DNA from: Eledone cirrhosa
Taxonomy: Eukaryota
DNA: 64,000 bases
Assembly: GCA_964016885.1 (NCBI GenBank)
Contig: OZ024760.1
Coordinates: 34,410,001-34,474,000 of the forward strand
Direction of reading: 5' to 3'
Positions 10,243-60,320 of this stretch are shown here, piece by piece. Under the pieces are notes generated by a model, which made no database searches, was not told the DNA's origin, and saw nothing but the letters and a program-made list of their open reading frames with translations. Within the stretch, counting starts at the first letter, position 1, and each line of letters begins with the position of its first letter. The translations under genes were made by a program, and so were the position numbers.

Positions 10243-10290
10243 TAGTAGTAGTAAGGTGTTCGATGTTGTGATAATGGTTAGCAGGGATGT

Positions 10291-12085
10291 GTGTCAAATG
10301 GCCTTTTCTACGGTATCCCTAAAGTACATAAAAGCGAATCAATAAGTAAGGCATGCAAGGAAGCCACAGACATAGTCATCAATGTCCCCTCACCCAATGA
10401 TCTCAAATTAAGACCTATAATAGCAGGCCCCGCTTGCGAAACCCACCGCCTTAGCAACTTCATTAAAATCCTTCTCAAACCCTTCCTCAAACACATCAAA
10501 AGCTATATAAGGGACGACCTAGATATGCTCAATCACCTCCCTAATATGCAACTTTCTGAACAAACCCTACTAGTGACGTTCGATGTAGTCAACCTATACT
10601 CCAACATCCCCCACAACCTAGGAATAGAAGCTATCCAATTCTGGCTGGATAATTTCCACAATGAACTCCCACAACGCATCAAAAAAGAATTTGTGATAGA
10701 GGGACTCAAATTTATCTTGGAGAACAATTACTTCGTTTTCAATAACAAACCCTACAGGCAGAAATCTGGGACCGCTATGGGAACGAAAACAGCCCCCACT
10801 TATGCCAACCTAGTCATGGGATACCTGGAAATCACCCTCTACACTAAAGTCCTAAACAAATTTGGAAACACCCTCCACTTACACATTGAAAGGAACTGGA
10901 AGCGATATCTAGATGACTGCTTCATCCTTTGGCACGAAAACATCGAAAAACTTAAAGAATTTCACACCCTTATAAATGGGCTCAACACGAATATTAACTT
11001 CATGATGGAATACAGCCATCAACAACTCCCCTTCCTCATTAAGATCCATCCTCATTAAGATCCATAACAAAAAAATAGAAACAGACATATACTACAAGCC
11101 CACAGACTCCAAGCAATATCTCCCTTTCAACTCTTGCCACCCTAGACACGTTAAAATTAATATTCCCTACAACCTAGCCAAGAGAATCTACTATAGTCTC
11201 CAATAAAAACATCTGCTTCTTACGGCTACAAGAACTAAAGGATACACTCATAGGCAGGGACTACCCTGCATCACTAATTGACAATGGAATCCAACGTGCC
11301 CTAAAACTCAGTACCCAGGACTTTAGACACCCTAAAGTAAATCAACCGAAACTAAAAGCTTTTCCATACATCTCCACACACAACCCCCTCAACAATGAGG
11401 CCTTTGACACCATCCTCCAGAACATCCCTGTGTTGAAAAAGGACCATAGAATGAACCAAATCCTACGAACACACGATATCATAAAGAGCAAAAGACAATC
11501 CAAGTCAATGAAAAACATCCTAACACATGCCAGAGTACTGCCAACCACAACAACGAAACCCACAGTAAAAAAATGCGATAGACCCAACTGTGGCATTTGC
11601 ATCAACCTAATAGAGGGTTCGGAATTCTATTTCAAAGGACAACGTTTTATAGTAAAACACAATTTCACATGTGCATCGGAAAATCTAATATATGTATTAA
11701 CTTGCTCAGGTTGTCGAGAACAATACATAGGCCAGACCAAAAACAGCCTCCGCCAACGCATGACTGTCCATAGATCCCAAATTAAAATACGGGAATACAG
11801 GAAAATACCACTGAGTGAACACATTGATACCTGTGCCGCCCAAAATCATCCCAACTTCAGAATCTTTCCCCTCTACAAATTTAAAGATAATGCCACCCAC
11901 ACCCAGCGCATCAGCAAGGAATCTTACTTCATTAACAAATACGGACCCCGTCTAAACACTTCTCCCTAAGACGAACCCACAACATACACACGTCAACATA
12001 CATACCTACATCAGCACACATCTCTACCTACATATAAACACAATGACATACGTAAACACACATGCTCTATGGTGCAACACAAAAA
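10291..12085 (+). mobile_element. Penelope-like element (RT + GIY-YIG, Neptune-like), 5'-truncated and frameshifted
   Basis: RT 'FYGIPKVHK', 'LRPII', 'FDVVNLYSNI', 'GTAMG', 'RYLDD'. Linker CxxxxCxxC; 'LIYVLTCSGC..YIGQT'; stop at 11969. A 16-bp tandem duplication at 11033-11064 breaks the frame. Related to 62038-63916. Confidence 0.92.
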
Positions 12086-12118: not shown

Positions 12119-12138
12119 TTATTAAAATAACATATTAA

Positions 12139-12189
12139 AGTTTAAGCAAAGAATCGCTGCTTTCACTCTTAACGGGATCTTCTGAAACT
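12139..12189 (-). ncRNA. Hammerhead-like motif, CAGAAGA core (family B)
   Basis: Reverse-complement copy of 13445-13495. Confidence 0.55.
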
Positions 12190-13444
12190 AACAAAGTCAA
12201 TCTGTAAACGCAGAAGTGGATATTTCAAAAAACGTTGCAACCGGAGGAAGACAGGAAGACGATACTTTGGTTCGTGGAAACGTTCCCTGGCAAAGAACGG
12301 GAAAAAACGAATATAATACGTCATTAATAGGAGCGGTGAAAAACAATTACACGCAAAAACAGGACCACGTTTATGGTATAAAAGAAGTCGTAGGCTAATG
12401 TTCTCTTAGGTGGTTCATAGAGACGTTCTCTGGCAATGAACGGAAAAAAACGAAGATAATAAATAAATTGCACAAATCTTTCCTGTATTACAGCCCCACG
12501 TTATACCCTAACGGATAGTACGATCTATACGTGGATATTTTACGTCTTGATGTGGTAGCTAAGTATATGTTTTACTTATTTGCATAGGTAAGTATATATT
12601 ACCTGTATGTTTTGTAAAGGTACGCATACTTTCTCGTACGTATATTTGATTGTATATGTTATGGCATATAATTTTTTATATATTCTGGTACATATGGTTT
12701 GGTTATGTGTATACGGGAGTTTTGCATCTGTGTGAGTATGCTGGTTCGTACGTATGTAGGGTGTGTGTATATGTGTACTTCATGTTTTGGTTGACTTACG
12801 TCTCCGAACTTTTGTGTATTTACATGTAGGTATGTGTGTGTGCTTGTTATATACGTATTTATTTATATACGTCTATTTAATTATTTATTTATTTGTATAC
12901 ACACACACACACACACACATATTTATATGTGCGTGGTTTTGTATACCTATGGCAAGTGTTTTCGCGTATGCTTGTGTATGTACGTATTTGCATGCGTGTA
13001 TGTATTTATTTAATTTCTATTACCTCTGTATTGCATTTTATTTACTTTATTCTTAACTCTGAAGCGGAGATTCATTCGGTTTCCTAGTTAGAATTTTAGT
13101 CTACGACTTCAGTTATGCCATTTACGTGGTTTTGTCTTTGCGTGCAATTGTTCTCCAAAGTCCACATATGACGTATTATCTTCGTTTTTCCCCTTCATTG
13201 CCAGAGAACGTCTCTATGAACCACCTAAGAGAACATTAGTCTACGACTTCTTTTATACCATAAACGTGGTCCTGTCTTTGCGTGTAATTGTTTTTCACCG
13301 CTCCTATTAATGACGTATTATATTCGTTTTTTCCTGTTCTTTGCCAGGGAACGTTTCCACAAACCAAAGTATCGTCTTCCTGTCTTCCTCTGGTTGCAAC
13401 GTTTTTTGAAATATCCACTTCTGCGTTTACAGATTGACTTTGTT

Positions 13445-13495
13445 AGTTTCAGAAGATCCCGTTAAGGTTGAAAGCAGCGATTCTTTGCTTAAACT
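13445..13495 (+). ncRNA. Hammerhead-like motif, CAGAAGA core (family B)
   Basis: agttt-CAGAAGA-tcccgttaaggtt-GAAA-gcagcgattctttgc-TT-aaact; AATAAA follows. Confidence 0.58.
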
Positions 13496-13596
13496 TTAAT
13501 CTGTTATTTTAATAAATATTTGCTCTACGGTTTGATATATATTTATCCTTATCAAGCCCTCTTTGGATTTTAGTCTTCAAATTTATTATTATTACT

Positions 13597-16499: not shown

Positions 16500-19400
16500 T
16501 ATTAAGAGAGTAAAACAAAGAAGCCTTCAATACATCAAAAATCTTTATTAGCCGACAATGTTTCGTCCTATTAAGGACTCATCAGGGCAATTAAAACAAC
16601 AAGAAGTAATATCGGCAGATACAAGCCGGAAGCTCCGAAGAATATGGAGTGTACATACACTAAAGTATTGCAAAAATATATAATAAAAATTACTAAGGAT
16701 GTATATAACATTAGGAACCATATTACAAATATAGTCCAAAGCAAAAAAAGCCTAGAGCTAAACAATGGTGGTTTATATATAATACAATGTAATATAATAT
16801 AATATACCTTTACCAACATTAAAATTACAATAAAAATCAAAAGGTACAATAAGCATATGTATATATGTACGCACACGTACACACACATACATACACATAC
16901 AACAATACACACATCCATCTTCAACTGCACAAATTAAACCTTATCAAGAGTTTGAATATAAAAATAAGCATGATAGGAATGAAAATAATAATAATAATAC
17001 TACTAATACATCTACCCAATATACATGAGGTAATAATATGATATAATTATAAGTAGCACATATAATAAATAATAAATAATACAATTATATACTATATAAT
17101 ACAATATAATAGAATAGATAATCTCCGGTTAATTTACACAAACAATATAGATGTCACAATAATAATATAATAATAATATAATAACATTTATAATATACAA
17201 TATACTAACATTTATAATAAACAATACATAATGGTGCTCAAGTTAACAAATCAATTCATACTGGGTTACAGTGTAGGTGAGGAAAAAATAAATTGTACAA
17301 TACCCCAAAAAAATATTTTGATGGTACAAAAGTACAAACATCTTACATGATATATAAAGTTTAACATATCATAATGTTACATATAATTAACGGTAAGTAA
17401 TAAGGATCAATATTACAATAAAAAATACAATATAATATAGTATATTATATAAAATAAATTAACATAATATAATATATAATTACTTATAATTACAAGGTTG
17501 GTAGACAGACATGTATATGGATGAGTGAGTAAGTGCCAGACAGTAAATATAATGCACAGTAGTATTACAAATTAAATATAAAATATAGAATAAAATAAAA
17601 AATAAATGGAATCAACCGGAAATTAAAAAACAAAAACAAACGTATACGTTTAGGTCTCACATGCAGTTAAGTAGTTAAGTAAAAACTAAGGAAACAACCC
17701 CTGTAAATGACTCAAAAACCCTATTTGATAAATTAATATTAAAAATATTTAAACTATCCAATAAGGCAGTATAATATTAGCTATAGTTTAAGTCATTAAA
17801 TTTTATAAATGTTAATATTTTGTTACAAATGTTTACAAAAAGGAATGAAAATTATTTACTATCATATACATAACGATATCTAAAAAACTGACTTAAGCAG
17901 AATTAAGGTAGGCTAATAGGGACAGAAATGAAGAGATATATGGAGGATGCAAAGGGGCATAAAAAATAGTCGATATACTATATTACATAATAGAAAGGAG
18001 CGTAAAAGAGGGGGAGGTTAAATATAATCATAGTCAATTTGGAGGGGTTGATAATAAGTTTATGTGCGCATGGCGGGGGGGGGGGGGGTTCCAAAGAAGA
18101 ATCCGAATAAAAATAAAAATAAAAATAAGAATAAAATAAATACCGTAAAATATATAGTCTTATATACATTCATAAGGTGTAATAGTGAAAATTTAATGCG
18201 TAAGAAGATAGATATGGTACAGTAGCCAAAAGATTATGAGAGCTAGAATAAAGAGTCATCAAAAACCAATGATAATAATGATGATAATAATAATGTTGGC
18301 AAACAAAAGAACCTAAACTAAAAAATAAATAATGGAATATATCAGCTAATGGGTACAATTTGTACTACTAGAACGTTTAGGTTTATAATAAAAGTATGAA
18401 TTAGAAATAGCGTGGGGGCAAGAAGAGAATATCTCAGACTTTCTATTAAGTAAGGATGCGCTAGAGAAGATTATAGAGCGTGTCTCGAGGATACAGAGAT
18501 TACAAAACTTAGTATGTGTAGAAAGGTGGTTAGAGCGTGCTACTAAACGCCAGTTAAGGCTATGTGGTATATTAGCTCCCTTAAGATCCCAGATATAATG
18601 TGCTAAAGAAGTAGAATTCTTAAACTTAACATGCTTGAAATTAGAGATATGAGAGTTAAACCTAGTCTTAAAAGTGTTAGATGTAGAGCCTATATAAGTT
18701 CTATTAGAGGAATTAGTTATAACTTCGCAAGCATAGACAATGTTCTTAGAAAGGCAGTTACCGTTTAAAGGGCAGTTAGCACTCACTCTACAATTGCACT
18801 TCCGGGTGTTATTGGTTGGCTCGAGTGGTGATGCATTACACGTAGGATTGCTATTAGATAAGGACTGTTCTGGTGGTAATGCATTGCCAGATCTGTTCAG
18901 ACTAGTAGTATGTATAGAGGAGAATCCATCCCTAATTTTCCTATTGTTAGTGCTAGCTAAATGAGAACTAATATTAGGGGTGGTAGAGAATGAAAGTTTA
19001 ATAACATTGTTATTAAAAATACTATGGTATTTATGAGAAGGGGGGAAATTTTTCTCTAAGATAGAGAAGAAAGACCTAGGGATATTAGTTGATACTTCCT
19101 GATTATATGGCGGGTTAAAATAAGTATTTAATCGCCTTCTATTTTAATTCTTACCGACTCTACCATTATCAAATATCCCACCATCGAGACTAGGGTTACT
19201 ACAAGGATTAGTTAAAGCCGCATTCATAGAATCAGCCAAAATTTCATTAAGTCTATTACAGTTTCTACCTCCAGTAGATCCGCTGCTGTCCGGAATCCCA
19301 TCATAAGGATTAGGGCCAATGATAGGATCAGTAGGAGCAACATTATTAGAATAAGATCCAGCAAAATTATCACCAATGTGTGAGCGCTCAGGGGGTTCAA

Positions 19401-26037: not shown

Positions 26038-26278
26038 AATATATATATATATATTTATAAATATATATATATATATATATGTAGATAAATCTACCAAGAG
26101 TTTAGGTAGTGTCCAATCCGTATGAAGAATTCAATGTAATCCGGATATCATGGAAAGAAGAGATGCAATGAAAAATCACTTTCGGTGAAAGATAAACGGA
26201 ATACAGAGTCAAGATAAAATATTAAAAAAATAATGAATAAAACAATGAAACAGTTCCTTATATTAAACAAAAAAAGTT

Positions 26279-26428
26279 CATTATTTAACGATCGTTTCTA
26301 GGATATATATGTGTTAGAATTGGCATGCATATTCAACAGATCTATGTACAAAATTATACAAAATTATACAAACTATCAAAATTAAATATACATACCAAAC
26401 ACATATATATGCCGTCTTCAGAAATAAT
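26279..26428 (-). ncRNA. Hammerhead motif with 116-nt stem II (family G, inverted arm)
   Basis: Reverse complement of 26429-26579. Confidence 0.68.
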
Positions 26429-26579
26429 CATTATTTCTGAAGACGGCATATATATGTGTTTGGTATGTATATTTAATTTTGATAGTTTGTATAATTTTGT
26501 ATAATTTTGTACATAGATCTGTTGAATATGCATGCCAATTCTAACACATATATATCCTAGAAACGATCGTTAAATAATG
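26429..26579 (+). ncRNA. Hammerhead motif with 116-nt stem II (family G)
   Basis: cattattt-CTGAAGA-[..atatatatgtgtt...aacacatatatat..]-GAAA-cgatcg-TT-aaataatg. 8-bp stem I; palindrome ACGATCGT. Confidence 0.72.
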
Positions 26580-26659
26580 AACTTTTTTTGTTTAATATAA
26601 GGAACTGTTTCATTGTTTTATTCATTATTTTTTTAATATTTTATATATATATATATATT

Positions 26660-40161: not shown

Positions 40162-41410
40162 TTAACTGTATATTTTTCACAAAGTATACAGTTAATATTC
40201 AATTCTTTATCAATTTAGAATCTTTTCTCAAAGGCACATATACATACACCTCTTTAAAATATACCCATCTTCCTACCTTACTTCAAAGGGCATTATACAC
40301 TCTATAATACTTGTTTACTCATTACCCTCTTTCTATCTTCACCTTGTAAAATCCTTCATAACATATACATTTGTTTTTTGACGTTAGAATATTCATCCGC
40401 AATTATTATTATTTTTTCTCTCTATCATAAAACTTTTTAATCTCAATTTCATCCTTAATTTATTATTTTTTTCTCCCCATCAACGAACTCATTCTTAATA
40501 CATATTAACTCTTTATTCGCACATATTATCAATTCCTTCAATATACAAACTTTAACTTTACATTATTTTTCTCAAATCCTTCTACACACAAACCTTAATA
40601 ATTTTTTCTCTTCGTTAATTTTGAAATTGCCACAATACTTATCAACATACACTTTTTTTGACGTTAGAATATTCATCCACAATTATTATTTTTTCTCTCT
40701 ATCTTCATACATAAATTCCCTTCGTTAATTTTCAAATTCTTTTAATTTATACATTATCTTCCAACGGTTCTCAACCTCTCTATGCAAAACAATATATCTT
40801 TTCTCAGTTATAAAAACTATCTCTTTCTCTCTATCACCCATCTCTCCCTCTCCACCTTCACTCTCATCTCCTCCCCCTTTTTTCATCCTTTCCCCCCCCC
40901 TCCCTAAATAAAATATTTTTTCCTCGTACATATCTTCCCTTCGTTAATTTTCAAATTCTTTTAATTTATACATTATCTTCCAACGGTTTTCAACCTCTCT
41001 ATGTAAAACAATATATCTTCTCTCAGTTATAAAAACTATCTCTTTCTCTCTATCACCCATCTCTCCCTCTCATCTCCTCCCCTTTTTCATCCCCCCCCCC
41101 CTCTCTAAATAAAATATTTTTCCCAATATCACACATCAATCTAAAACCACTTTTCATATGTTGATTTAAAACTGCACTATCCACAAGTGTTTTTTAGCCT
41201 TCATATCATGTTCTATTTTATCTGATGAAAACACAAATATTATTGCATGATGATGTTTGTTTTTGAAATGCGCATAATAAAATACATGGAACTCCTTTAA
41301 CCATCTTTTGATCTTATATTATGTATACTCCAGTCCTACAAACTGTAGAGTGCTTCTTATCCGATATCTGCATTGCTTTATTGTACTACAATAAAACTCA
41401 CCTCCTACAT
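40162..41410 (+). mobile_element. HHR family C terminal region (probable PLE 3' UTR/pseudo-LTR) with internal duplications
   Basis: Homologous to 14706-15170 and 55630-55885; direct repeats ~40715-40925 / 40935-41125. Confidence 0.72.
41216..41282 (+). ncRNA. Type I hammerhead ribozyme with long stem II (family C)
   Basis: ttttat-CTGATGA-aaacacaaatattattgcatgatgatgtttgttttt-GAAA-tgcgca-TA-ataaaa. Palindrome ATGCGCAT; AUA site. Confidence 0.8.

Positions 41411-52914: not shown

Positions 52915-52916
<2 letters not shown>
52302..52916 (+). mobile_element. CR1/L2-group LINE 3' fragment, near-identical to 35598-36211
   Basis: ORF 52368-52829 has the same translation as the 35686 copy; tail (TTCAAAGTTA)2. 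Confidence 0.94.
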
Positions 52917-52946
<30 letters not shown>

Positions 52947-53229
52947 CGAATAACGAAACGAAATTAAATTTTGTTTCGCTTCTAACTCACTTTTGTATGA
53001 CTGACGCTTAAATAATTAAGTTAAAGTGTACATCTATATATGTATACGGAAGTATTAGTATGCATATAAATACACATATGTATACATATGTACATGTACC
53101 GAGCTTTTCACTAGACACTTTACAGTGAGTGTCCAGCTAGTCTGTATGTAGACAGACGAACCGGGTTTTAGAGTCATACGAGTTTTCAAGGAAACACATT
53201 TCCTCTATTCTCCAGAGAGCCAGACAGGA

Positions 53230-53272
53230 ATATTGGACTAGTTTCGATGTTATTACATCTCATCAGCAATAT
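53230..53272 (-). ncRNA. Minimal type I hammerhead ribozyme (family K, inverted arm)
   Basis: Exact reverse complement of 53621-53663. Confidence 0.9.
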
Positions 53273-53620
53273 ATACCTATCTTTCCGGCTTCTCTGGAGA
53301 ATTGTAAGTGTCTAGTGAAAAGCTCGGTACATGTACATATGTATACATATGTGTATTTATATGCATACTAATACTTCCGTATACATATATAGATGTACAC
53401 TTTAACTTAATTGTTTAAGCGTCAGTCATACAAAAGTGAGTTAGAAGCGAAACGAAATTTAATTTCGTTTCGTTATTCGTTTTTATCGTTTCCGCTGAAC
53501 CGGTGCGTACAATGACTCACGTTCTATGCAAATTAGTCTGCCCACTACTGATTTTCATAGAAAAAGCATATAACGATATGTGCTTTTACAATTCTCCAGA
53601 GAAGCCGGAAAGATAGGTAT

Positions 53621-53663
53621 ATATTGCTGATGAGATGTAATAACATCGAAACTAGTCCAATAT
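53621..53663 (+). ncRNA. Minimal type I hammerhead ribozyme (family K)
   Basis: atattg-CTGATGA-gatgt aata acatc-GAAA-ctag-TC-caatat. Perfect stems I and II, palindrome ACTAGT, predicted cleavage after C53657. Confidence 0.92.
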
Positions 53664-53898
53664 TCCTGTCTGGCTCTCTGGAGAATAGAGGAAATGTGTT
53701 TCCTTGAAAGCTCGTATGACTCTAAAACCCGGTTCGTCTGTTTACATACAGACTAGCTGGACACTCACTGTAAAGTGTCTAGTGAAAAGCTCGGTACATG
53801 TACATATGTATACATGTGTGTATTTATATGCATACTAATACTTCCGTATACATATATAGATGTACACTTTAACTTAATTATATATATATATATATATA

Positions 53899-54291
53899 TT
53901 ACTCTTTTACCCTTTTACTCTTTTACCTGTTTCAGCCATCCGGCTGAGGCCATGCTGGGGCACCGCCCTTGTTGCCACACATTTTATCTCCAGCCTGTAC
54001 AGGTTGGCCACTGGTGTAGGAGGGGGTTTGTTGCTGCTGCCCTTAGGTTTCCCTCGTGTCTTGCTGTGGGCTCATCCGGGATCCTGGATAACAAGGTGTC
54101 GAGATGTTTCTTAAAGACATCCACCTCCACGTCATGCAAGTCTCGCAGATGCCTCGGCAGCCTGTTGAAGAGTTGAGGGCCCTTGAATCCCAGGCTATTG
54201 CAATACCTGCTCCTTATTCTAGATGTGGAAGACGGGACCTTTGGCACCACACAGTGACGTCCTGTTCGACGGTTGGTCCAGCTCCCAATGC
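53899..54291 (-). mobile_element. 3' fragment of another CR1/L2-group LINE with a (GTAAAAGA)n-type tail
   Basis: 'NSLGFKGPQLFNRLP..FKKHLDTLLSRIPDEP' resembles the C-terminus of the other LINE family; ctcttttac repeats at 53902-53927. Confidence 0.82.
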
Positions 54292-54300
54292 CAGAAATAA

Positions 54301-54446
54301 TATTTCTGAAGACGGCATATATATGTGTTGGTATGTATATTTAATTTTGATAGTTTGTATAATTTTGTATAATTTTGTACATAGATCTGTTGAATATGCA
54401 TGCCAATTCTAACACATATATATCCTAGAAACGATCGTTAAATAAT
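54301..54446 (+). ncRNA. Hammerhead motif with long stem II (family G, third copy; element 54292-54512)
   Basis: Near-identical to 26432-26579. Confidence 0.68.
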
Positions 54447-54512
54447 GAACTTTTTTTGTTTAATATAAGGAACTGTTTCATTGTTTTATTCATTATTTTT
54501 TTAATATTTTAT

Positions 54513-55457
<945 letters not shown>

Positions 55458-55496
55458 TAATATAAGATCAAAAGATGGTTAAAGGAGTTCCATGTA

Positions 55497-55563
55497 TTTT
55501 ATTATGCGCATTTCAAAAACAAACATCATCATGCAATAATATTTGTGTTTTCATCAGATAAAA
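55497..55563 (-). ncRNA. Hammerhead ribozyme (family C, inverted arm)
   Basis: Reverse complement of 55691-55757. Confidence 0.8.
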
Positions 55564-55690
55564 CAGGAGAACATGATATGAAGGCTAAAAAACACTTGTG
55601 GATAGTGCAGTTTTAAATCTACATATCATATGTAGATTTAAAACTGCACTATCCACAAGTGTTTTTTAGCCTTCATATCAGGTTCTCCTG

Positions 55691-55757
55691 TTTTATCTGA
55701 TGAAAACACAAATATTATTGCATGATGATGTTTGTTTTTGAAATGCGCATAATAAAA
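55691..55757 (+). ncRNA. Hammerhead ribozyme (family C)
   Basis: Identical motif to 41216-41282. Confidence 0.8.
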
Positions 55758-55904
55758 TACATGGAACTCCTTTAACCATCTTTTGATCTTATATTATGCA
55801 TACTCCAGTCCTACAAACTGTAGAGTGCTTCTTATCCGATATCTGCATTGCTTTATTGTACTACAATAAAACTCACCTCCTACATATGTATATATATATA
55901 TATA

Positions 55905-56623: not shown

Positions 56624-56849
56624 TTCGTTTCTGAATTTGTTTAGCAAGATTCTTTATCTGAAATCGTGTGTTGAAACCGATATTGTTATACTTTGGGAGG
56701 GTCATGTTGCCAATAAGAAACACACGCACCAGTTGCTTTCACTTCAATTTATTATATATTTATAAATTTATAAATTTACATATTTACAAACTTATAAATT
56801 TCTGGTTGGTTGGTTGGTTGGTTTCACAACCAGATAGTTGTTTATATAT

Positions 56850-56894
56850 AGTCATAGTCCTTTCGTCACACACTCTGTGACCTCTTCAGTGACT
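56850..56894 (-). ncRNA. Type I hammerhead motif (family F)
   Basis: agtca-CTGAAGA-g-gtcaca gagtg tgtgac-GAAA-ggac-TA-tgact; one extra nucleotide before stem II. Confidence 0.75.
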
Positions 56895-57173
56895 GGGGAT
56901 TCCTTTCTTTGTTTCTGTGCCTTTCCTTTCTTCTATCCTACGCCATTTTGTTTCTGTGTGTGTGTTGTGTGCTCAGTTTGCGCATGCGCCACATCCGGGT
57001 GTCTGTGTGTGTTTGTGTTCATTTATCTATTTGTTTATTTATTTATTTATTTATCGTTGGTTGGTTGTTTGTTCTATGTGTGTGTGTGTTTTCATTTTGT
57101 CCTGTGTGTGTTTTCATTTTGTCCTTAATTGTAAGTTGTTTGTTCTATGTGTGTGTGTGTTTTCATTTTGTCC

Positions 57174-59681
57174 TTAATTGTAAGTTGTGATGTTGCTGTT
57201 CCACTCATATTTTCTATTTAATTTTGGTTTTAATTCTTTTATGCTTACTGCCTCTGTAATTTGCCTAAACATTGCGTCTTTTCTGTGTGTGGATTCTATT
57301 TTTATTTCTATGTTCTCTAATCTACCCCTGTGTTCTATCTTGGCATGTTGGTAGAGCACAGATGATTCTTTATTATCTTGGAGGTCTCGCCAGTGTTCAT
57401 TTATCCGTTCCCCTATACTACGAGCTGTCTCACCTATGTACACTATATTTTTGTTTCTACATTGTCCTTCAGTACATCTTACGCTATACACTACATTTCT
57501 AGTTTTACAGTTAATATGGGGGCTTATTTTACAGGTTATACATTTCTTATCTATACATGAGGGTCTTTGGAACGGGCACGTCTTGCTAATAAGTGTTTCT
57601 ACGGAGGTACCTGGTCTTTCCACTATCTTAATATTGAGATTATGTTTATTTAGGGCCCTTCTAAATTTGTAGGCTAGTTCGCCTCTAGGGGTTGCATTGA
57701 TGAACATTACACTCTGGTATTTATTGCTATCATACCATGAGTTTATTCCATTGGCCCTGTTCCTAGTTCTTTCTATTCCATTCCAAAATTTGCTCCTATA
57801 CAAGGGGCAGGTCCCATTTATGTCATTATTTACCATTTTTTCCCATTTGGTTCTGGCTCCTTTATACACTCTGATTCTATCTCTCTGATTGTAGCCAGAG
57901 AACTGCATACGGTGGATGGAGTGTTGTATGTGTCTCTCTAGTTCTTCGGGGTTGCACATGCGGGACACATTTCTCATCACCCGTACCAAATCCGCAATCA
58001 GTATGTTGATTTTGGTATGGTCCGAAATGGCCGAGTTTCGGTGGATCAGATGTTTGGAAGTCATGGGTTTGGCATAATGGGAATGGAGGATTTGTTTTTG
58101 GTTGTTAATGGTATCTAACCAGAGCTCTGTGTCTAGTACAGGTAATCGATGGTTGGGGTGTCTACTTGGGTAGTCTATAGTAACTCTAATGCTCTGGTGG
58201 ATGGAGTTTGCTATTTGCTGGATGCTTTCCATTGTGTTTTTCTCTAGTTCCTGACTGTTCTTTAGTGAGGCTGTCTTAACCACGACGTCCACATCATCTA
58301 CGTAGCGGGAGTACATCACCAGGGCCAAGCTGTCTACTAATTGTTCTTTAAGTTTTTGTTTAAGTCTACTGTCCCACCATACCATGAATAAGTTAGCTAT
58401 GTCGCCTGCAATGCTAACACCAATGGCTGCTCCTTCCTCTTGGGGATATGTTTTACCATTAAATTTGAACATATGTTCCTTAAGGGTTAATTTTATGCTG
58501 GCCCCCACCGCATGTGCAATCATCTTCTTCAGTTCATCGTGGTTTACGGGTGTACGTATGGCTCTGGTCCACCCGCTCCATCTATCTGTGTGGGTTTTCT
58601 TGGCCATTGAGGTAATGGTAGGTGGTCTGCCTCTTGCTGGTCTTGTAGGGCACAGGTTGCTAAGGCCACAAGTGTCTAGGTAACTATTACTATGGGTAAG
58701 CTTAAGTAGAAGTCCCAGCTCACTGGTAACAATCCCACGGAACTCAACCTTGCTCTCGCCGATCATTTCTACGCATTTCTCCACAGCAAAATCCACGTCA
58801 ACAGATGGATACAGGGACACAACATCCATACTGCCTATTATGCAGTTTGTTAGGTCCCCAGATCGGTTACCCGCGCCGATTCTGCTGAGGAGGTCCTCCG
58901 TGCTGTCACATACATCTGGGGACATCTCAATGATGGGGCGTATGATCAGGGAGAGGAAGTAGGACAGTCTGTAGTTACTAGCAATGTTAGCCCCACAGAC
59001 TGGCCGTGTTGGTGGTCCCGCGACAGGGTCCCAGCCCGTTTTATGGTCTTTTCGAAGCCCATACAACGCCGGCACGTCATTGTTCCAGGCCTGGAAGTTG
59101 TTGGCAGTCCTTCTGCTGGGCTGCACCACATTCGTCCACATCACCATATGGGCATTGAGGGCTTTTTCTCTATCCTCATACTCCTGTGGTGTTACCTCTC
59201 TTGTGTTAGTGATGTGGGGTTGTATTGCCTGGATGTAGTTTGGCAGGCTGTCAACCGACATCCTGCCAGACTTGTCTGTTGGAAAACATGCTATCTCTCC
59301 ATTACGCGAGCGCTGCATGAGCTTACACAAGCCATTTGCAGATTTTTCTCCCAGTTGCTGGGCCTCTATTCCATTATGCTTCTTGCTATACTGTTCTATA
59401 ATATTTCTAAGTTCGGATTTAGCTATACTAAATTGTGCTTCTGTTTGTTCATCGACCTGCGACGGCAACTGCGTGCGTTTGTTAAATGGCAAAGTCGTGG
59501 CGTGGACTCGTCGCAGGTCGAATGATTTATCGGAGGGGTTATAAAATGGAGAGTTCCAGGCTGCTGCTTTATGTGTACTAGTGCTATTATTATTGTTAGT
59601 TGTGTTGTTTCTATTTCTATTTCCACCAACAGCCTCATGGTTGTTTCTATGTCTCTCATAATTACTCCTGTCTCTTTCCAC
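57174..59681 (-). CDS. Penelope-type reverse transcriptase + GIY-YIG endonuclease (835-aa open frame; true N-terminus probably upstream)
   Basis: 'PTDKSG', 'LYGLRKDHK', 'TRPV', 'SMDVVSLYPSV', 'GAAIG', 'RYVDD', 'LPVLD', CxxxxCxxC, 'VVYSVRC..C..YIGET'. Confidence 0.9.
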   Translation of the reverse strand: MERDRSNYERHRNNHEAVGGNRNRNNTTNNNNSTSTHKAAAWNSPFYNPSDKSFDLRRVHATTLPFNKRTQLPSQVDEQTEAQFSIAKSELRNIIEQYSKKHNGIEAQQLGEKSANGLCKLMQRSRNGEIACFPTDKSGRMSVDSLPNYIQAIQPHITNTREVTPQEYEDREKALNAHMVMWTNVVQPSRRTANNFQAWNNDVPALYGLRKDHKTGWDPVAGPPTRPVCGANIASNYRLSYFLSLIIRPIIEMSPDVCDSTEDLLSRIGAGNRSGDLTNCIIGSMDVVSLYPSVDVDFAVEKCVEMIGESKVEFRGIVTSELGLLLKLTHSNSYLDTCGLSNLCPTRPARGRPPTITSMAKKTHTDRWSGWTRAIRTPVNHDELKKMIAHAVGASIKLTLKEHMFKFNGKTYPQEEGAAIGVSIAGDIANLFMVWWDSRLKQKLKEQLVDSLALVMYSRYVDDVDVVVKTASLKNSQELEKNTMESIQQIANSIHQSIRVTIDYPSRHPNHRLPVLDTELWLDTINNQKQILHSHYAKPMTSKHLIHRNSAISDHTKINILIADLVRVMRNVSRMCNPEELERHIQHSIHRMQFSGYNQRDRIRVYKGARTKWEKMVNNDINGTCPLYRSKFWNGIERTRNRANGINSWYDSNKYQSVMFINATPRGELAYKFRRALNKHNLNIKIVERPGTSVETLISKTCPFQRPSCIDKKCITCKISPHINCKTRNVVYSVRCTEGQCRNKNIVYIGETARSIGERINEHWRDLQDNKESSVLYQHAKIEHRGRLENIEIKIESTHRKDAMFRQITEAVSIKELKPKLNRKYEWNSNITTYN

Positions 59682-60320
59682 TGGCTCAATGTTGTTATCT
59701 ACCCTATTTTGTGTGTCTGTGTGTTCGTCTTGGTTATTCTCTTTGTCCTTAGTCTCCCATCTCCTTTTCCTTTTAATCCTATTACTTTCTCTTATTTCTC
59801 TGATTTCTGTGCTACTGTCATTACTTGTTTTCTGTGTCTGTGTTTGTTAAGATTGTGGTGGTGGTGAGAGGCATTGAATGCGTGTGTGTTGTTGTTGTTG
59901 ATGTGTGTTGTTGTCTCCGTGTGTGTTATCGTTGTTGTGTGTGTTGTTATTGTTGTTTGTGTCTGCGTGTCTGTTGTTGTATCTGGGTATGTTGCTATTG
60001 TTGTTGTTGTTGATGTGTGTGTTGTTGTTATTGTTGTCTCCGTGTGTGTTATCGTTGTTGTGTGTGTTGTTATTGTTGTTGTATCTGGGTATGTTGCTAT
60101 TGTTGTTGTTGTTGATGTGTGTGTTGTTGTTATTGTTGTTTGTGTCTGTGTGTCTGTTGTTGTTGGGATGTGTGTTGTATATGTGTGTGCGTATATTGTT
60201 GCTTTTGTTTTTGATGCTCCAGCGTAGTTTTGTAAATGATTTTTCTATTTCTGACAGACAACTAATCATATTTACCTTCTTGAATGTCGCAAATTTCGTT
60301 GTTGAACTCTTCTGATAATG

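What the first reader, a model, noticed from the sequence alone, without database searches (positions are those of the whole stretch)
52942..53880. Retrozyme/viroid-like 467-nt non-coding monomer with a perfect hammerhead
Seen: unit length 467 (53308 to 53775), present as 1.2 direct units. The inverted arm (53307->52942) starts near unit position 53587, passes the HHR and reads straight through the monomer junction, so the template was circular or multimeric. The arms meet at a TGTAA microhomology. The HHR is canonical and sits on a long extended stem (ttctccagaga/tctctggagaa, agccgga/tctggct). The rest of the unit is rich in hairpins (cgaaacgaaat-tta-atttcgtttcg, ctggacact/agtgtctag, gtctgt/acagac, gcatat/atgtgc). 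No coding remnant; copies nearly identical, so recent. Known: animal non-LTR retrozymes are small HHR-bearing tandem repeats that yield circular RNAs and are thought to use PLE machinery. Inference: a probably undescribed retrozyme family targeting (TA)n and parasitising the PLEs around it.
Basis: partly seen in the sequence, partly recalled or inferred. Interest (0 to 1): 0.88.

Follow-up and report, generated by a model that had tools for sequence, protein, structure and literature searches.

The report
Hammerhead retrozyme with Penelope footprints
This is one insertion of a young, abundant, protein-free 467-base repeat with a predicted self-cutting RNA motif; its fixed ends and likely RNA-editing scars indicate that it is copied into DNA from its own RNA, likely by a Penelope-type jumping-gene enzyme working on both strands of the target.

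Summary
Observation confirmed: a 467-nt non-coding unit with a type I hammerhead (predicted cut after C53657), plus an inverted arm that crosses the monomer junction. The hammerhead is not 'perfect': helix III is minimal and palindromic, so it likely cuts as a dimer.

The family has 1,463 exact ribozyme cores in this genome, in arrays of up to about 95 units or more. A 430-nt sister family has 10,805. The unit was never found as the terminal repeat of a Penelope ORF.

Of 108 outer ends, 102 fall at two sites about 70 nt apart, and 34 of 34 fully called two-armed insertions pair one short with one long end. An autonomous Penelope element here does the same (12 of 12). Some copies carry A-to-G clusters on the ribozyme strand. 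In one locus both arms share rare changes; in two loci tandem units do. In seven loci the marker change is unit-specific, so uncut multimers also seem to serve as template.

Verdict: a new member of the known animal non-LTR retrozymes, with genomic evidence for the proposed Penelope route. The partner element, expression and cleavage are untested. This scan noted the same family before on other DNA of this genome.

The parts
52940..53879 (.). Whole two-armed insertion; the RNA 3' ends face outward and the 5'-truncated ends meet at 53307/53308
52940..53307 (-). Inverted arm, unit 279-467 then 1-179; ends at the long 3' end (unit 179)
53308..53879 (+). Forward arm, one 467-nt unit plus 105 nt; ends at the short 3' end (unit 105)
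53413..53486 (+). 'Tail' between the two family-wide 3' ends (unit 105-111 and 176-179); inferred reverse-transcription start sites; includes the AT-rich hairpin near 53449-53473
   Evidence: loose ends at 53486 in DNA-like runs
53526..53533 (+). Octamer ATGCAAAT, possible snRNA-type promoter element (untested)
   Evidence: 138 of 141 family A segments; present in sister families B and C
53592..53685 (+). Long predicted stem enclosing the hammerhead
53621..53663 (+). Type I hammerhead: helix I 6 bp, helix II 5 bp, minimal palindromic helix III; predicted cut after C53657
53230..53272 (-). Second hammerhead copy, in the inverted arm
52916..52939 (.). (TA)n target at the left end, directly after the 3' end of a LINE fragment
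53880..53899 (.). (TA)n target at the right end

Best explanation
This is a non-coding, hammerhead-bearing tandem retroelement (an animal non-LTR retrozyme) whose ribozyme-strand RNA is likely reverse-transcribed into (TA)n sites by a Penelope-type RT/GIY-YIG protein supplied in trans. Shown: dispersed copies and arrays, no ORF, two fixed 3' ends about 70 nt apart, head-to-head arms that pair a short with a long end, evenly spread 5' truncations, and strand-biased A-to-G clusters. Inferred: the enzyme nicks both target strands and primes one cDNA at each RNA site. The cDNAs run through the ribozyme cut site and are joined at short or no microhomology. The template is likely a mix of ligated monomer circles read in laps and uncut multimer transcripts. 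Predicted, untested: transcription (perhaps from an octamer-containing internal promoter), dimer-dependent self-cleavage and circularisation.
For: 1,463 exact cores, control 0. 102 of 108 3' ends at two sites and 34 of 34 fully called two-armed loci short+long (69 of 73 loci counted). An autonomous RT + GIY-YIG element shows the same rule in 12 of 12 head-to-head pairs, ends 41 nt apart. This matches the two RT start sites and 'tail' of the anole element (PMC11167929, parts 1-2 of 4 read). Only 2 of 99 5' ends lie within 5 nt of the cut, about 2 expected. A312G occurs at 14 loci against 1 for the T311C control. L247 has 16 A>G and no other rare change, and both arms share 474G and 103G, which are absent from 74 and 67 unselected loci. 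L054 has three tandem units sharing 8 A>G sites, and its 27-mer occurs only there. Hammerhead helices covary across families A, B and C: 7 of 13 pairs change on both sides.
Against: No partner found: the A and B monomers share no BLAST-detectable sequence with five Penelope regions, and two variant-core searches gave no Penelope terminal repeat. Hyper-editing is rare: 1 of 70 unselected A loci and 0 of 57 B/C loci. Single-unit variants show no A>G excess (17 A>G vs 28 T>C). In 7 of 9 loci where several segments cover position 312, only one carries the G, which argues against a single circle as the usual template. The ADAR neighbour bias is only a trend (p=0.08). The strong fold is not strand-specific (z -8.2 vs -6.6).
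Confidence: 0.85

Rival explanations
1. Same element and enzyme, but the template is always an uncut linear multimer; the ribozyme and circles play no part in mobility, and identical tandem edits come from later DNA duplication or an edited source array.
For: Unit-specific A312G in 7 of 9 informative loci. In the anole element the ribozyme was not needed for insertion in vitro (PMC11167929). Large arrays show unit-level variants spreading by DNA duplication (L041, L061). Helix III is weak.
Against: L054 shares 8 edits over three units with no other copy of its 27-mer in the assembly. L251 shares 3 edits over two units. The ribozyme helices are kept by compensatory changes across families 62% identical.
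Confidence: 0.4
2. The unit is the pseudo-LTR of an autonomous Penelope family not sampled here, and the copies are its 5'-truncated insertions.
For: End anatomy is the same as truncated Penelope copies. Xenopus retrozymes match Penelope pseudo-LTRs (10.64898/2026.07.22.740005). Only about 70 of several hundred loci were examined. In 6 of 26 one-armed or odd loci the 5' end joins Penelope sequence.
Against: Upstream of the ribozyme the sequence continues as the previous unit for many laps (arrays of about 95 units or more). The six joins involve three different Penelope types, lie mid-ORF or in an inverted tail, and two break the short+long rule, so they look like nested insertions.
Confidence: 0.08
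3. Ordinary satellite or fold-back DNA repeat spread by recombination, with an inert hammerhead relic.
For: A 45-kb-plus array exists. No RNA evidence was obtained.
Against: Hundreds of dispersed short insertions, fixed 3' ends with random 5' ends, and strand-biased A>G clusters are not expected from DNA recombination.
Confidence: 0.04
4. An endogenised viroid-like RNA that replicates RNA-to-RNA.
For: Small size, strong circular fold, hammerhead.
Against: No strict hammerhead was called on the opposite strand of the unit. Rare A>G clusters lie on the ribozyme strand only in the loci seen. Zero pattern hits in viral contigs.
Confidence: 0.03

Closest known systems
Metazoan non-LTR retrozymes (coral, mussel, axolotl; PMC7229834, passages and parts 2-4 of 6 read)
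   Same: Non-coding tandem repeats, GC 36%, one type I hammerhead per unit, strongly self-paired circle predicted. The weak palindromic helix III recalls axolotl HHR_Amex1, and the U-U at the base of helix II in family B recalls HHR_Amex2.
   Different: 467-470 nt is above the 170-400 nt (150-450 bp) given there. Two-armed insertions with fixed short and long ends and editing scars are not described in the parts read ('inverted' occurs 0 times). Expression and circles are not shown here.
Vertebrate retrozymes as Penelope derivatives (10.64898/2026.07.22.740005, parts 1-3 of 5 read, supplements not seen)
   Same: Proposes non-autonomous elements moved by Penelope enzymes; the size lies in its 51-972 bp range.
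   Different: Its evidence is co-occurrence and pseudo-LTR homology in frogs, it samples no mollusc, and it favours array growth by unequal crossover. Here no pseudo-LTR homology was found, and the evidence is insertion anatomy.
Penelope-like elements: tail and inverted copies (PMC11167929 parts 1-2 of 4; PMC8557442 and PMC3846280 passages)
   Same: AT-rich and (TA)n targets, head-to-head arms, a tail at one end only, two RT start sites.
   Different: No ORF; the tail is about 70 nt rather than 30-40. PMC3846280 suggests self-priming on an antisense template for inverted arms, whereas L247 shows sense-strand scars shared by both arms.
Newt satellite 2 (cited via PMC2220036 passage and PMC7229834; the primary paper was not held)
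   Same: Tandem hammerhead satellite with a dimer-type ribozyme; snRNA-type internal promoter, and an octamer is conserved here.
   Different: Promoter activity is untested here. That the octamer is the snRNA distal element is recalled knowledge.

Membership tests
Metazoan non-LTR retrozyme | Short tandem repeats with a type I hammerhead in each unit | tested here: met
   Cores spaced 465-471 nt, dimers up to about 95 units or more
Metazoan non-LTR retrozyme | No coding capacity, no LTR structure, low GC | tested here: met
   Longest frames 58 and 65 aa, GC 36%; ends abut (TA)n. PBS and PPT were not searched for.
Metazoan non-LTR retrozyme | Hammerhead structure conserved | tested here: met
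   94% of cells paired, 7 of 13 pairs change on both sides, 0 of 500 shuffles reach the covariation score (12 related sequences, so not a probability). Below Rfam gathering score.
Metazoan non-LTR retrozyme | Expressed as monomeric linear and circular RNA | tested here: inconclusive
   Editing-like scars imply that the RNA existed; no direct RNA data could be examined
Metazoan non-LTR retrozyme | Self-cleavage in vitro | not testable with these tools
   Only 1 of 9 Xenopus dimers cut in 10.64898/2026.07.22.740005, so it cannot be assumed
Metazoan non-LTR retrozyme | Co-exists with autonomous Penelope elements | tested here: met
   Many identical copies with an open 784-aa RT + GIY-YIG frame
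Penelope pseudo-LTR | Flanks an RT + GIY-YIG ORF | tested here: not met
   Not seen in the loci sampled; the sample is about 70 of several hundred loci
Penelope-type insertion | Tail at one end only, head-to-head inverted copy, TA targets | tested here: met
   34 of 34; control 12 of 12
Viroid-like RNA replicon | Ribozymes in both polarities, RNA-to-RNA replication, no genomic source | tested here: not met
   One polarity only, genomic copies abundant, 0 viral-contig hits; replication itself not testable

The most novel reading that the evidence does not exclude
A Penelope enzyme copies one small hammerhead RNA, often a circle, from both strands of the target at two fixed internal start sites and can lap the circle. 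RNA-editing scars act as single-molecule barcodes showing that both arms come from the same sense-strand RNA. This would give direct genomic support for rolling-circle retrotransposition of retrozymes and explain the inverted arms of Penelope elements without an antisense template.
Probability: 0.45. Interest if true: 0.75.

Novelty: new member of a known kind. Interest (0 to 1): 0.57.

Why it matters
The papers read propose, but do not show, that Penelope enzymes move animal retrozymes through RNA circles. This family gives exact predicted start sites, a strict one-short-one-long rule matched by an autonomous element in the same genome, and edited copies that trace single RNA molecules. That makes the step directly testable with a purified Penelope protein and a 467-nt RNA. 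It also bears on how Penelope inverted arms arise. With its sister families it contributes about 14,000 ribozyme cores to one genome.

Tried and rejected
No RNA holder was listed. Laying four runs of unrecorded kind showed family variants only. One run of a second organism label holds a single 499-nt contig that closes on itself at depth 2.4, which tandem DNA would also give, so it was not used.

Partner search failed. BLAST of the monomers against five Penelope regions was empty. A profile over 1.07 Mb of held DNA gave 3 remote relatives, none inspected as a Penelope terminal repeat. Variant-core patterns gave family C and scattered, probably chance matches. Joins to Penelope sequence were rejected as partner evidence.

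Linear cut monomers as the main template: no pile-up of 5' ends at the cut. The loci were chosen for holding a core, which biases against arms that stop there. Family B/C editing scan was negative. Rfam miRNA matches to the AT-rich part are far below gathering score and were dismissed. No target-site duplication can be read within (TA)n. A look-up of earlier scan notes by sequence and nearby place gave nothing. The newt promoter paper was not held.

Full report
Observation. The insertion spans 52940-53879 between two (TA)n runs. The forward arm is one 467-nt unit plus 105 nt. The inverted arm is unit 279-467 followed by 1-179, with 4 mismatches in 368 nt. Read on the ribozyme strand, both outer boundaries are RNA 3' ends (unit 179 and 105) and the two 5'-truncated ends meet in the middle. 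The junction shares AA exactly, or TGTAA with one A lost. There is no ORF over 65 aa. The circular fold is -148.9 kcal/mol, z -8.2 against 60 shuffles, but the other strand also folds well (z -6.6).

Ribozyme. It is a type I hammerhead with a 6-bp helix I, a 5-bp helix II and a minimal palindromic helix III. It is below Rfam's gathering score but absent from shuffles. Across 12 copies of families A, B and C, 7 of 13 pairs change on both sides. PMC4209133 (passages) says such helices impede monomer cutting and allow dimer cutting, so dimer dependence is predicted, not shown.

Family. The window lies in a 3.0-Gb genome. The exact 31-nt core occurs 1,463 times; a 30-mer marking the window's subtype occurs 55 times. 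Units are 465-471 nt, or about 520-540 where an internal TA run has grown. One array runs over at least 45 kb, about 95 units, end not reached. A colinear sister family B (430 nt, 62% identical) has 10,805 cores, and a variant pattern gives 1,692 more, mostly a B-like subfamily C. An octamer at 53526 is kept in 138 of 141 A segments and in B and C.

Ends. I mapped 73 loci: best DNA hits, consecutive loci on C1 at 14-96 Mb, and subtype hits, so not a random sample. Four at stretch edges were dropped. Of 108 3' ends, 50 lie at unit 105-111, 52 at 176-179, 3 elsewhere and 3 were not called. All 34 two-armed loci with both ends at these sites pair short with long (one near-duplicate pair included); five further two-armed loci had one end elsewhere or uncalled. 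An autonomous Penelope family with an open 784-aa RT + GIY-YIG frame has two ends 41 nt apart and pairs them the same way in 12 of 12 head-to-head cases. PMC11167929 shows in vitro that such a protein cuts and extends both target strands and starts at two internal RNA sites that define the tail. The 99 5' ends from 63 loci (10 duplicates, edge or complex loci dropped) are evenly spread, with 2 within 5 nt of the cut. So cDNA runs through the cut site, as expected for a ligated circle or an uncut multimer.

Editing-like scars. In 70 unselected loci one (L054) is hyper-mutated A to G on the ribozyme strand; single-unit variants show no bias (17 A>G, 28 T>C), and none of 57 B/C loci is hyper-mutated. 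L054's three tandem units share 8 A>G sites and its 27-mer occurs nowhere else, even with one mismatch. A genome-wide pattern forcing A312G found 14 loci; the T311C control found 1. Among those 14, L247 has 16 A>G and no other rare change, on both sides of the cut site, and L253 has 18 (one a subtype marker) beside 10 other changes, mostly subtype markers. In L247 both opposite arms carry 474G and 103G, seen in 0 of 74 and 0 of 67 unselected loci, so both arms likely came from one edited RNA. Against a single-circle rule: of 9 loci with several segments over position 312, only 2 share the G in all of them. Attribution to ADAR rests on established knowledge; the neighbour bias is only a trend.

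Mechanism. Most likely the ribozyme-strand RNA is bound by a Penelope protein, which nicks both strands of a (TA)n target, primes one cDNA at each RNA site, and the two truncated cDNAs are joined. Templates seem to include both re-read monomers (circles) and multi-unit RNAs; later DNA duplication enlarges some arrays. The partner family is unknown. No shared sequence was found, and six direct joins to Penelope DNA among 26 loci involve several families and look like nested insertions.

Known and new. The class is published (PMC7229834), and a Penelope origin is argued in 10.64898/2026.07.22.740005. Seven library searches listed no paper on this family, on fixed short and long ends in retrozymes, or on editing scars as template tracers; most listed papers were seen as listings only, and supplements were not seen. 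Earlier notes of this scan report the same family and related 310-478 nt families in this genome with the same two-end reading. My end rule was noted before that look-up. Note e1-8803865 reads the template as cut units, which one search does not support. The label 'cephalopod' comes from those notes and was not tested here.

Noticed in passing
L171:5799-9448; window 10282-11969 is a broken copy: The young Penelope family has a 455-codon upstream frame overlapping the 784-codon RT frame in the -1 frame, with T TTT TTA in the overlap in all 7 loci checked: a possible -1 ribosomal frameshift. No strong downstream hairpin was predicted, no hammerhead was seen by eye in its terminal region, and one paper search gave 0 hits.
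   Followed up: partly
L062:3570-5020, L096, L079: Sister retrozyme family B/C (about 420-434 nt), over 12,000 cores, with homologous short and long ends about 55-60 nt apart.
   Followed up: partly
G000:C1:95621000-95666000 (L074-L076, L179, L180): Satellite-sized array of about 95 or more 470-nt units, end not reached.
   Followed up: partly
window 16530-16600 (-), 41210-41300 (+), 55490-55770 (both strands), 56830-56900 (-), 54295-54450 (+), 26200-26650: Other hammerhead-like motifs, several in two-armed Penelope-type ends, one with a helix II insert of about 110 nt.
   Followed up: partly
window 12130-13520: Two-armed non-coding insertion with one short and one long end, inside the 3' region of the Penelope copy; no hammerhead recognised.
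   Followed up: no
L059:1533-1775, L038:7970-8093, L043:2871-3070: Remote relatives of the monomer; two keep the octamer nearby and all have reduced hammerhead-like cores.
   Followed up: partly
window 57174-59846 (-): Open 890-codon Penelope-like frame with no Pfam hit at E 0.001; its tail is about 60 nt.
   Followed up: no
L031 (G000:C9:26734600-26739800): Subtype in which an internal TA run has expanded, giving 527-539 nt units; two insertions lie side by side.
   Followed up: partly
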